DNA of 4,057 bases, taken from NCBI RefSeq assembly GCF_003334305.1, contig NZ_QOWS01000051.1. One strand, 5' to 3'. Below the pieces are notes generated by a model. It was not told where the DNA came from. It worked only from the letters and a program-made list of their open reading frames with translations, and did not search any database. Source of the DNA: Escherichia coli. Its GTDB lineage: Bacteria > Pseudomonadota > Gammaproteobacteria > Enterobacterales > Enterobacteriaceae. Position numbers and translations under genes: made by a program. Shown here piece by piece: positions 817 to 2,480 of this stretch. Positions within the stretch are counted from its first letter, which is position 1. Every line of letters begins with the position of its first letter.

Positions 817-1269
817 CTATTTTCCTGAATCTACTTTACGTAATTGTTTCAATAACTGCTGATCCTTTACAACATTCCTTGTAGTGCCATTTTGGACATT
901 CCTAAACCCTCTGGGATACTGAGGAGCATCCTTAATAGACCTGTAGGTATTTCTTATTTCGCCATCCTCATCTGGCTCCCACCCTCCCGAACCTCCTGTA
1001 CTGCCACTGCCCAAACAGTTCTTCTCTTCATCCGTCAAATCCTTCCCGACATTTGGATTCTCTTTTGATGAATCATCATTTCCAAACACGCTGGAAAAAG
1101 CACCATAGGGATCTCGCCAGAATTCCATTTGACTTTGTGCATTTAATAATTCGGCTTCACCCCGCATCTCCATACTTTTCTCAATCGCATCCCCAACAGC
1201 CTCGCGATTGTTGTATATTACTATACCACCACCAATAACCACCGCTCCAACTGCCGCACCGACTAACAT
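817..1269 (-). CDS. Hypothetical protein (~150 aa) with N-terminal glycine-zipper hydrophobic segment; possible membrane-anchored or exported protein, possibly an orphan toxin or immunity component
   Basis: ORF track 817..1296, but residue 1 there is a TTG codon at 1294-1296. The first ATG is at 1267-1269 and is preceded by a perfect AGGAGG at 1280-1285 (minus), 10 nt upstream. From that ATG the protein starts MLVGAAVGAVVIGGGIVIYNN (GxxxG-rich hydrophobic helix), followed by a hydrophilic, Gly/Ser/Asp-rich region. No catalytic motif recognised. Confidence 0.5.
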   Translation of the reverse strand: MLVGAAVGAVVIGGGIVIYNNREAVGDAIEKSMEMRGEAELLNAQSQMEFWRDPYGAFSSVFGNDDSSKENPNVGKDLTDEEKNCLGSGSTGGSGGWEPDEDGEIRNTYRSIKDAPQYPRGFRNVQNGTTRNVVKDQQLLKQLRKVDSGK

Positions 1270-1289
1270 CCCTGGAGGGCCTCCTACCC

Positions 1290-2480
1290 AGGGCAAGATT
1301 ACGAAAGCCCGCTCCCCGCAAGGACTGACGCCAGATAGTTCCTGTCCATGGCTGCTTTTCGCATCTTACGTCTTAACCCTGCCTTGAATACCTTATCATT
1401 CGTCAAAATATTAATAGCAATGTGCCGTATCCCTGAAAATAATTCCGCTGCATTTCCTCTTCTTATTCTGCAGTCGTCTTCATTCATTACCACGTCCAGG
1501 CGCCAGTGCAGCTTATTCTCCACGTGCCAGTGATTTCGGATCGCTGTGGCGAACTTCTCTGCAGTTAAATCAGCAGAGCTGATATAATATCTGACCGTCA
1601 TTTCGGGTTCTTTCTTTTGTTCTGCTATTATGGACCGAAAGGAGACTGCCACGCATAATTTCTTCAGCCCTTTCCATTCAAACGTGAAATCAATAAGTTC
1701 ATCAGGGGCATCGCAAACAATATGAAGACGGATTTCTTCTCTGCCGTGACTCTTTTCACTGATTGCGTAACTGTCATGCTCTGGATTATTTAATTCTTTC
1801 AGCGGAAATTTTTCCTCAAAGGCTTTATTTAGCCGCCCCTGGTTTCCTTTTACCGCGAATAAATAATCACCTCCCTGTTTTTGTATCTTCTCTGCAATAT
1901 CTTTCTGGCAACCCATCGCATCAGTTGTGATGATTTTTCCTTTAATATCCAGCATGTTAAGAAGTTCTGGGATAGCTGTAATCTCATTAGATTTCTCATC
2001 CGTCTTGATCTGTCCGATGACCAGACTGTGCATTGTTGAGAACGCACTAATGACATGAATCGCTCCCCTGCGGCGACTCTTGTCATAAGAGTGCCGGAGC
2101 GTTTTTCCATCAATTGCAATGACGTCTTTATCATCTGAAGAATGGCAGTCACGCATCCAGTTAATAAAGCACTCGTGAAATTTTGCAGGACTGATACAGG
2201 ATACAACTCTGGCAATGATATCGTGAACAGGAATACCATTTTCAAAATCACCATATCACTTCAAAACATCGGGATGTGTTTCCCCAAAATCCTCTATATC
2301 TTCCCAGCCTTCTGCACCAGAAATAACGGCACAAATAGTCAACAGTAGAATATCCGATAATTTATGTTCCACTTTCCAGGCTTGTCTGTAATCGGGGATA
2401 ACAGAAATATGTTCCATCAATTTTTTAAGTTCCATTTTGTTCTCCTTAATTATGTAAGGAGTATTTGATCATGTATAAGC
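1290..2480 (-). mobile_element. ISAs1-family insertion sequence (H-rpt-like); boundaries approximate, terminal inverted repeats not resolved
   Basis: Contains the transposase reading frame 1299..2435 and its ribosome-binding site. The outer limits are set by the terminator at 2550-2573 and by the SD/ATG of the downstream gene at 1267-1285. I could not find convincing terminal inverted repeats or target-site duplications by eye. Confidence 0.5.
1299..2435 (-). pseudogene. ISAs1-family transposase (H-repeat-associated protein), full length 378 codons, interrupted by an in-frame TGA at codon 60 (2256-2258)
   Basis: ATG at 2433-2435 preceded by AAGGAGA; translation [59 protein letters not shown][37 protein letters not shown] then continues in the same frame as the ORF-track product [18 protein letters not shown]...[12 protein letters not shown] (1299..2156). 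The sequence matches the E. coli H-repeat (ISAs1 family) transposases as I recall them. Confidence 0.85.

What the first reader, a model, noticed from the sequence alone, without database searches (positions are those of the whole stretch)
817..1296. Glycine-zipper protein downstream of the IS: candidate orphan toxin or membrane immunity protein
The ORF-track start is a TTG; the more credible start is ATG 1267-1269 behind a perfect AGGAGG. The product opens with MLVGAAVGAVVIGGGIVIY, a GxxxG-rich hydrophobic helix, then a charged, Gly/Ser-rich region and a basic C-terminus (...RNVQNGTTRNVVKDQQLLKQLRKVDSGK). Its position between two rhs genes, followed by a small partner gene, resembles an orphan toxin-immunity module, but it has no DPxGL or Rhs core remnant and no motif I recognise.
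Basis: inference. Interest (0 to 1): 0.5.

Follow-up and report, generated by a model that had tools for sequence, protein, structure and literature searches.

The report
Dead orphan Rhs toxin tip
The "glycine-zipper protein" is the broken remnant of an Rhs toxin tip: an insertion sequence cut off its front, a stop codon truncates its toxin domain, and its immunity gene is frameshifted. It is ordinary gene decay, but the ancestral toxin/immunity pair it reveals is uncharacterised.

Summary
It is not a stand-alone gene. It is collinear with the region just after the DPLGL cleavage motif of intact E. coli Rhs proteins. An ISAs1/H-rpt element removed everything upstream, with the junction at about 1288-1291. 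The AGGAGG and the ATG are ordinary internal Rhs codons (Val-Gly-Gly…Met). The TAG at 817-819 replaces a family-invariant Trp. The frame continues for 39 more codons to a TAA that overlaps the ATG of the next gene. That gene is a DUF3969 protein with a -1 frameshift in an A-run. All 605 complete E. coli genomes that carry the element have the TAG allele, and 603 have the same IS junction. The ancestral tip is an ~88-aa domain found at the extreme C-terminus of Rhs, HINT and PAAR toxins across phyla (382 clusters). It has no Pfam match and no confident PDB fold match. In three distant lineages it is followed directly by a DUF3969 gene. The glycine-rich helix is a shared pre-toxin segment, not the toxic part. 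Verdict: a decayed orphan Rhs-CT/immunity cassette. The orphan-toxin reading is right about its origin. The membrane-immunity and functional-gene readings are not supported.

The parts
817..1269 (-). Annotated 150-aa ORF (WP_000960005.1). It is an Rhs C-terminal region truncated at both ends.
1213..1269 (-). Glycine/alanine-rich hydrophobic helix (aa 1-19). It is part of a pre-toxin segment shared at ~93% nucleotide identity with the intact ST131-type Rhs WP_021516938.1.
964..1212 (-). Charged, Gly/Ser-rich pre-toxin linker, including NPNVGKDLTDEEKNCLG (1009-1059). Homology to the ST131-type Rhs ends near 965, where the two tips diverge.
1280..1285 (-). AGGAGG. It lies inside the codons GTA-GGA-GGC (Val-Gly-Gly) of the Rhs-CT and is identical in the intact Rhs gene.
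1288..1291 (.). Junction between the IS terminus and the Rhs-CT remnant. The TTG at 1294-1296 lies in the IS end.
820..963 (-). First 48 residues of the ~88-aa toxin tip domain (GEIRNTY...DSGK).
817..819 (-). Premature TAG in place of the family-invariant Trp (W49 of the domain). The TAG allele is in 605 of 5426 E. coli genomes and the TGG allele in none.
700..816 (-). Unannotated remainder of the toxin domain: 39 in-frame codons (SKVYKDGFDASGRKVSIHYFESQSGRVFNVKVKPYWSNL) that hold the invariant K51 and H67.
697..699 (-). Original TAA stop of the toxin. It overlaps the ATG (695-697) of the immunity gene as TAATG.
357..697 (-). DUF3969 (PF13108) immunity gene with a -1 frameshift. The A-run at 609-615 has 7 A's where the ancestral gene had 8. 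PGAP annotates only the distal 64 aa (357-551).
1291..2560 (-). ISAs1-family (ISEc1/H-rpt-like) element. Its transposase pseudogene spans 1299-2435 with an internal stop near 2254-2256. The left end was not mapped precisely and lies at about 2556-2585.
2614..3006 (-). Partner gene (presumed immunity) of the main Rhs, with a lipoprotein-like N-terminus.
2984..4057 (-). 3' end of the main T6SS-linked rhs gene, with DPLGL and a YkuD-like tip.
1..276 (-). 5' end of the next rhs gene (PAAR-like N-terminus, ATG at 274-276).

Best explanation
Window 357-1290 is a decayed orphan Rhs-CT/immunity cassette in the E. coli T6SS-1 rhs cluster. Ancestrally, an Rhs protein ended in DPLGL, then a glycine-rich hydrophobic pre-toxin segment, a charged Gly/Ser linker, and an ~88-aa toxin domain. 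That domain has invariant F, L, W, K and H residues. A translationally coupled DUF3969 immunity gene followed it (TAATG overlap). Three lesions have inactivated the cassette. First, an ISAs1/H-rpt element removed everything upstream of a point 24 residues after DPLGL, so there is no Rhs shell, no PAAR and no core homology left for recombination. Second, a TGG->TAG change at the invariant Trp removes the last 39 residues, including the invariant Lys and His. Third, a -1 slip in an A-run breaks the immunity gene. The annotated 150-aa ORF exists only because an internal Met codon with a fortuitous upstream AGGAGG (Val-Gly-Gly codons) survives next to the IS. The homology, the three lesions and their fixation in E. 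coli are shown by tool results. That the ancestral domain was a cytoplasm-acting enzyme neutralised by DUF3969 is inferred. The grounds are its exclusively C-terminal position in polymorphic toxins, the conserved gene pairing, the lack of an obvious signal peptide on the immunity protein, and the invariant Lys and His. The inference that it was possibly a nuclease is weak. That the present 150-aa product is non-functional is also inferred.
For: The locus context is Hcp-VgrG-Rhs-immunity-ISAs1-ORF-DUF3969-Rhs. The ORF is collinear with the intact Rhs WP_021516938.1 from 'VGGPPGMLVGAAVG', and DNA identity starts exactly at the IS end. The frame stays open for 39 codons past the TAG, up to a TAA that overlaps the next ATG. 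Homologues from Salmonella, Snodgrassella, Gilliamella, Xenorhabdus and a Firmicute read Trp at the TAG position and continue to ...VKVKPxWSN. W49, K51 and H67 are invariant in 100 diverse members. The domain family has 382 clusters, and 127 of 146 domains end within 2 residues of the protein C-terminus, in proteins of 100-3686 aa that include Rhs/YD and HINT types. A DUF3969 gene lies directly downstream in three distant lineages. The frame-corrected window gene matches PF13108 at E = 2.8e-19 across the frameshift, and the conserved K-x-ISIDEAE motif supports the 8-A ancestor. The TAG allele is in 605 of 5426 genomes, the TGG allele in none, and the same IS junction in 603. Many copies also carry F->V at the invariant F20, which suggests relaxed constraint. 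The window has no repeat of 18 nt or more, so the fragment shares no homology with the main rhs gene for recombinational reactivation. No promoter-like site lies on the ORF's strand in 300-1500.
Confidence: 0.88

Rival explanations
1. The 150-aa ORF is a functional stand-alone small membrane protein. It would be anchored or pore-forming through its N-terminal glycine-zipper helix, acting as a toxin or membrane-active peptide, and expressed from the ATG behind the AGGAGG.
For: The N-terminal 19 residues are strongly hydrophobic and hold a GxxxG motif. A Shine-Dalgarno-like AGGAGG lies 10 nt from the ATG. PGAP annotates it as a CDS. It is conserved in about 600 genomes.
Against: The start signals are internal Rhs codons, identical in an intact Rhs gene. 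The glycine-rich segment is shared with an Rhs that has a different tip and a different immunity gene, so it does not specify toxicity. The Met is absent from the related P0018 sequence (GGPPGAVVG). The ORF ends inside a conserved domain at an invariant Trp. Many copies are mutated at the invariant F20. No Pfam glycine-zipper family matches, even at E <= 10. No promoter-like site lies on its strand.
Confidence: 0.06
2. The ORF is a membrane immunity protein, either for the upstream main Rhs toxin or as an orphan immunity gene.
For: It is small, has one hydrophobic helix, and lies downstream of an rhs gene.
Against: The main Rhs already has its own overlapping partner gene at 2614-3006. The ORF is homologous to the toxin-bearing C-terminal regions of Rhs, HINT and PAAR proteins, not to genes that follow them. 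In three other lineages the gene that follows this domain is DUF3969.
Confidence: 0.02
3. The cassette is a silent but usable reserve. The toxin fragment could be re-deployed by recombination into a full-length rhs gene, as with the Salmonella LT2 orphan, and the DUF3969 gene switches on and off by slippage in the A-run (phase-variable orphan immunity).
For: Orphan Rhs-CTs can be activated by recombination with the main rhs gene (PMC3967940). The 324-nt pre-toxin segment is ~93% identical to that of ST131-type Rhs genes. Re-framed DUF3969 alleles exist in E. coli through at least two different second-site indels. The frameshift sits in a homopolymer.
Against: The Rhs core homology upstream of DPxGL, which the LT2 mechanism uses, is gone, and the window has no internal repeat. 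Any recombinant would still carry the TAG, which is in all 605 genomes. The re-framed immunity alleles are rare: clusters of 1-2 members against 437 for the truncated form. One of them restores the frame 13 nt away from the run, leaving three wrong residues in the conserved ISIDEAE motif region. No 8-A allele was seen among the protein hits. The DNA test for it failed.
Confidence: 0.1

Closest known systems
Orphan rhs-CT/rhsI modules (Poole et al. 2011, PMC3150448; Koskiniemi et al. 2014, PMC3967940)
   Same: [quoted passage not shown] It encodes a C-terminal region homologous to the tips of full-length Rhs proteins in other bacteria, and a small cognate immunity gene follows it.
   Different: Typical orphans keep some rhs core sequence and the DPxGL motif, which lets them recombine with the main gene. 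Here an ISAs1 element removed all of that. The toxin also has a nonsense mutation and the immunity gene is frameshifted, so the module appears dead rather than cryptic.
E. coli Rhs elements with H-rpt (ISAs1-family) insertions and displaced core/tip fragments (classical K-12/ECOR Rhs element structure; stated from general knowledge)
   Same: An ISAs1/H-rpt pseudogene lies directly next to an Rhs tip fragment inside an rhs array. The same block recurs at a second rhs locus in other strains.
   Different: No difference in kind. The specific tip family (unnamed domain plus DUF3969) has not been described in anything I could find.
ST131-type intact Rhs WP_021516938.1 with immunity WP_001077735.1
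   Same: It has the same post-DPLGL glycine-rich hydrophobic segment and NPNVGKDLTxEEK linker (~93% nucleotide identity over 324 nt) at the same T6SS-1 locus near yafV.
   Different: From about GGW onward it carries an unrelated 114-aa tip and is followed by an unrelated 125-aa gene. It is intact and attached to a full Rhs shell.
Glycine-zipper pore-forming T6SS effectors such as Tse4 and Ssp6 (from general knowledge)
   Same: It has a hydrophobic glycine-rich helix in a T6SS-associated polymorphic toxin context.
   Different: There is only one strict GxxxG and no match to Pfam glycine-zipper families. The segment is a shared pre-toxin module upstream of two unrelated tips, not the variable toxic domain paired with the immunity gene.

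Membership tests
Orphan Rhs-CT/RhsI module | [quoted passage not shown] | tested here: met
   The order is Hcp-VgrG-Rhs-immunity-IS-ORF-DUF3969-Rhs.
Orphan Rhs-CT/RhsI module | Sequence homologous to the region following DPxGL of full-length Rhs proteins | tested here: met
   It is collinear with WP_021516938.1 and with Salmonella Rhs fragments P0005/P0006.
Orphan Rhs-CT/RhsI module | Retains upstream rhs core sequence and the DPxGL motif | tested here: not met
   Homology starts 24 residues after DPLGL, at the IS junction. No core sequence lies upstream of the IS.
Orphan Rhs-CT/RhsI module | Followed by a small cognate immunity gene | tested here: met
   A DUF3969 gene follows with a TAATG overlap to the original stop, and the same pairing occurs in 3 other lineages. 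The window's copy is frameshifted.
[quoted passage not shown]
   This needs expression experiments.
Unnamed ~88-aa polymorphic-toxin tip domain (the DUF3969-associated family defined here, alignment A5) | Significant sequence similarity to the family profile | tested here: met
   It is 57-89% identical to members. The family has 382 clusters at E <= 1e-3.
Unnamed ~88-aa polymorphic-toxin tip domain (the DUF3969-associated family defined here, alignment A5) | Complete domain with the invariant residues F20, L41, W49, K51 and H67 in one reading frame | tested here: not met
   A TAG replaces W49, and K51 and H67 lie beyond the stop. This allele is fixed in E. coli.
Glycine-zipper membrane/pore-forming proteins | Tandem (G/A/S)xxxGxxx(G/A/S) repeats, or a match to Pfam Gly-zipper families | tested here: not met
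   There is one GxxxG and two small-xxx-small pairs. Pfam gives no match even at E <= 10.
Glycine-zipper membrane/pore-forming proteins | The glycine-rich segment is the toxic, immunity-specifying part | tested here: not met
   The same segment precedes an unrelated tip with an unrelated downstream gene in WP_021516938.1.
DUF3969 (PF13108), for the downstream partner gene | Match to the Pfam profile over most of its length | tested here: met
   The frame-corrected 113-aa protein matches at E = 2.8e-19, residues 10-102 against model positions 4-96 of 106. As encoded, only the distal 64 aa are in frame.
BECR-fold (barnase/EndoU/colicin E5-D/RelE) RNase toxins, considered for the ancestral tip | Structural similarity of a confident model to solved members | tested here: not met
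ISAs1-family insertion sequence, for the element upstream | Transposase matching the ISAs1 model | tested here: met
   NF033564 matches at E = 2.4e-94, split by an internal stop.

The most novel reading that the evidence does not exclude
The dead cassette points to an undescribed, phylum-spanning polymorphic toxin/immunity pair. The toxin is an ~88-aa C-terminal domain with invariant Lys and His and a confidently predicted fold that has no solved relative. It is neutralised by DUF3969, which would give that 'domain of unknown function' a role as an immunity family. In E. coli the toxin is universally dead, yet the immunity gene has been re-framed independently at least twice. That would mean selection for orphan immunity against a toxin still deployed by neighbours such as Salmonella.
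Probability: 0.35. Interest if true: 0.5.

Novelty: new member of a known kind. Interest (0 to 1): 0.3.

Why it matters
For the window itself the result is a correction to annotation. WP_000960005.1 ('hypothetical protein', present in about 11% of complete E. coli genomes) and the 64-aa 'DUF3969 family protein' are pseudogene fragments of one orphan Rhs toxin/immunity cassette. The 119-nt 'intergenic' gap between them is the rest of the toxin domain. More broadly, the reconstruction links an unnamed toxin tip family (382 clusters, no Pfam model, no solved structure) to DUF3969 as its likely immunity partner. That pairing is directly testable and would give DUF3969 a function. It also shows that a glycine-rich helix after DPxGL can be a shared pre-toxin segment that recombines independently of the tip.

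Tried and rejected
- Pfam and NCBIfam scans found nothing for the ORF as encoded, for the reconstructed 190-aa protein, or for the reconstructed tip. Pfam scans of all 100 family members also gave no hit at E <= 0.001.
- A profile search against PDB sequences gave only chance hits, E >= 0.29.
- Pfam on the ST131-type Rhs tip found nothing.
- I tried a DNA test for 8-A versus 7-A alleles of the DUF3969 gene in E. coli genomes. Both queries, including the 7-A positive control, returned nothing, presumably because of low-complexity masking, so the test is void. I replaced it with a protein search and a locus comparison.
- A search for the IS terminal inverted repeats was unclear, so the left IS end is not mapped precisely.
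- Literature searches for DUF3969, PF13108 and the WP accessions returned no papers.
- The pre-toxin segment search found it only in E. coli and close relatives, so it gave no functional lead.
- I considered and rejected an internal translation start conserved within Rhs-CTs: the Met is absent from the related P0018 sequence.

Full report
**Observation**

The ORF is present as described. It runs from 817 to 1296 on the minus strand with a TTG start and encodes 159 aa. An ATG lies at 1267-1269, and AGGAGG lies at 1280-1285, 10 nt upstream of it. PGAP annotates the ATG form as a 150-aa hypothetical protein, WP_000960005.1. Only the first 19 residues are hydrophobic (Kyte-Doolittle mean 2.23). 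They hold one strict GxxxG and two small-xxx-small pairs.

**Context**

The window matches E. coli chromosomes at 99.8% identity. In strain A7 the gene order is tssBC, hcp, vgrG, a full-length 'RHS element core protein', its small partner gene, an ISAs1 transposase pseudogene, the ORF, a 'DUF3969 family protein', a second rhs gene, ydcD and two more ISAs1 copies. All of this lies next to yafV, ivy and fadE. Every gene in the window is on the minus strand. In other strains the same block (ISAs1, ORF, DUF3969, rhs) also occurs at a second rhs locus.

**What the ORF is**

A search with the ORF region found about 600 genomes with a near-identical copy. About 270 further genomes matched window 965-1288 at ~93% identity inside an 'RHS element core protein'.

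The intact Rhs WP_021516938.1 reads ...RLDPLGLSAALGAGALTAMGTGSEVGTEIGSVGGPPGMLVGAAVGTVVIGGGIIIYNNREAVGD...NPNVGKDLTEEEKNCLGGGSTGSPGGWGPEDEN..., followed by an unrelated 114-aa tip. The window ORF is collinear with this sequence from 'VGGPPGMLVG'.

At the DNA level, identity begins at GGTAGGAGGCCCTCC, which is window 1288 and downward. Comparison with another ISAs1 copy in the same genome shows that the IS ends at ...CGTAATCTTGCCC, about window 1291. The following points result:
- The IS abuts the Rhs-CT remnant 24 residues after DPLGL.
- The TTG lies in the IS terminus.
- The 'perfect AGGAGG' is the Val-Gly-Gly codons, and the ATG is an internal Met codon. Both are present unchanged inside the intact Rhs gene.
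- The related sequence P0018 has GGPPGAVVG with no Met at that position, so the start is not a conserved feature.

**The stop codon is a mutation**

In frame beyond the TAG at 817-819, the sequence stays open for 39 codons (SKVYKDGFDASGRKVSIHYFESQSGRVFNVKVKPYWSNL). It ends at a TAA (697-699) that overlaps the ATG (695-697) of the next gene as TAATG.

Homologues read through this point with ...ESGKWSKVYKDG... and end ...NVKVKPxWSN. They come from Salmonella (annotated as Rhs fragments), Snodgrassella, Gilliamella, Xenorhabdus, a protein with a PAAR-like domain, and a Syntrophomonadaceae Rhs. In an alignment of 100 diverse members, the only invariant positions are F20, L41, W49, K51 and H67. The TAG replaces W49, and K51 and H67 lie beyond it.

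A 44-mer in which every 28-nt seed must span the codon gave these results across 5,426 complete E. coli genomes:

| Test | Genomes with a match |
|---|---|
| TGG version of the 44-mer | 0 |
| TAG version of the 44-mer | 605 (735 places) |
| 56-mer spanning the IS/ORF junction, covered by at least 80% | 603 |

E. coli therefore carries essentially one allele, which is both IS-truncated and nonsense-mutated. Many copies also have F->V at the invariant F20 (the P0001 cluster of 642 members, and locus L008). That is consistent with relaxed constraint.

**The partner gene**

The ORFs at 596-697 and 357-551 are two halves of one gene, split by a -1 frameshift in an A-run (7 A's at 609-615).
- With an eighth A, the 113-aa product matches DUF3969 (PF13108) at E = 2.8e-19 across the junction.
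- The corrected sequence reproduces the K-x-I-S-I-D-E-A-E motif that is conserved in Salmonella and Xenorhabdus homologues.
- The common E. coli form is truncated: 80 aa, 437 member sequences.
- Rare full-length E. coli alleles exist, but they are second-site repairs. One has 5 A's (P0178). Another has an extra T 13 nt downstream, which gives KKQYLIDEAE (P0177, P0179). In those strains the toxin fragment still carries the TAG.

In Gilliamella, Salmonella and a Syntrophomonadaceae MAG, the gene that carries the toxin domain is followed immediately by a DUF3969 gene of 111-136 aa. This supports a cognate toxin/immunity relationship.

**The ancestral toxin domain**

A profile search of 1.84 billion representative proteins found 382 clusters at E <= 1e-3 and 90 at E <= 1e-30. 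In 127 of 146 full-length matches the domain ends within two residues of the protein C-terminus. The host proteins range from about 100 to 3,686 aa. They include Rhs/YD-repeat proteins and proteins in which a HINT-like segment directly precedes the domain. This is the architecture of a polymorphic-toxin tip.

The domain has no Pfam match, either for the reconstructed protein or for any of the 100 members. It has no NCBIfam match and no PDB sequence match.

The activity therefore remains unknown. An enzymatic toxin acting in the cytoplasm, possibly a nuclease, is my inference. It rests on the invariant Lys and His and on an immunity protein with no obvious signal peptide. It is not a result.

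**The glycine-rich helix**

This segment and the following NPNVGKDLTxEEK linker are shared, at ~93% nucleotide identity, with an Rhs that carries an unrelated tip and an unrelated downstream gene, WP_001077735.1. Conversely, the same tip is attached to quite different pre-toxin sequences in other organisms. The segment itself was found only in E. coli and close relatives. It is therefore a lineage-specific pre-toxin module that recombines independently of the tip. It is not the toxic or immunity-specifying part. What it does is untested. Possible roles are packing in the Rhs shell or membrane insertion and entry into the target cell.

**Can it be reactivated?**

[quoted passage not shown] Orphan modules of this kind are a known feature of rhs loci (PMC3150448). 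Here the core homology is gone, and the window has no repeat of 18 nt or more. Any recombinant made through the pre-toxin segment would still carry the TAG. No promoter-like site lies on the ORF's strand between 300 and 1500. That scan matches a consensus only.

**Verdict**

The finding is a real sequence feature with an ordinary explanation: a triply inactivated orphan Rhs-CT/immunity cassette. The functional-toxin, glycine-zipper and membrane-immunity readings are not supported. The remaining interest lies in the ancestral pair, an undescribed and widespread tip domain with DUF3969 as its likely immunity protein. The independent re-framing of the immunity gene in a few E. coli lineages is also worth noting.

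Noticed in passing
window 2987-3478 (-) and 2614-3006 (-): The tip of the main Rhs after DPLGL has a weak YkuD L,D-transpeptidase match (PF03734, E = 3.4e-5), which suggests a toxin that targets peptidoglycan. Its partner gene overlaps the rhs stop by 23 nt and begins with a lipoprotein-like signal (…[11 protein letters not shown]). That would fit a periplasmic immunity protein.
   Followed up: partly
window 609-615 (-); loci L008, L013, L014: Rare E. coli DUF3969 alleles are restored to full length by two different second-site indels (5 A's in the run, or an extra T near 601), while the adjacent toxin fragment stays TAG-truncated. 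This could reflect selection for orphan immunity or just homopolymer noise. The 5-A allele recurs in several short-read assemblies.
   Followed up: partly
window 906 (-), codon for F20 of the toxin domain: A large share of E. coli copies (P0001 cluster with 642 members, and L008) carry Phe->Val at a position that is invariant in 100 diverse family members.
   Followed up: partly
window 1299-2435 (-): The ISAs1-family transposase is itself a pseudogene, with an internal stop near 2254-2256. Strain A7 has two more degenerate ISAs1 copies 5-7 kb away in the same rhs array.
   Followed up: partly
L004 2658-3000 (-) and L004 2281-2658 (-): The ST131-type Rhs WP_021516938.1 ends in a 114-aa tip (…GSGSTADAVRYELATGEKVGGRGHVLKAQDY…) that has no Pfam or NCBIfam match. 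An uncharacterised 125-aa gene, WP_001077735.1, follows it. This is another unassigned toxin/immunity pair.
   Followed up: partly
window 149-156 (-): An A8 run (codons Lys-Lys-Lys) lies inside the PAAR-like N-terminal coding region of the downstream rhs gene. In strain A7 that rhs gene is annotated as frameshifted, but I did not check where the frameshift lies.
   Followed up: no
L005 (Gilliamella) 1-6735: The Gilliamella homologue sits in an array of small toxin/immunity-like genes (EndoU_bacteria, LHH and SUKH immunity families). Short ORFs that hit SymE_toxin are interleaved on the opposite strand.
   Followed up: no
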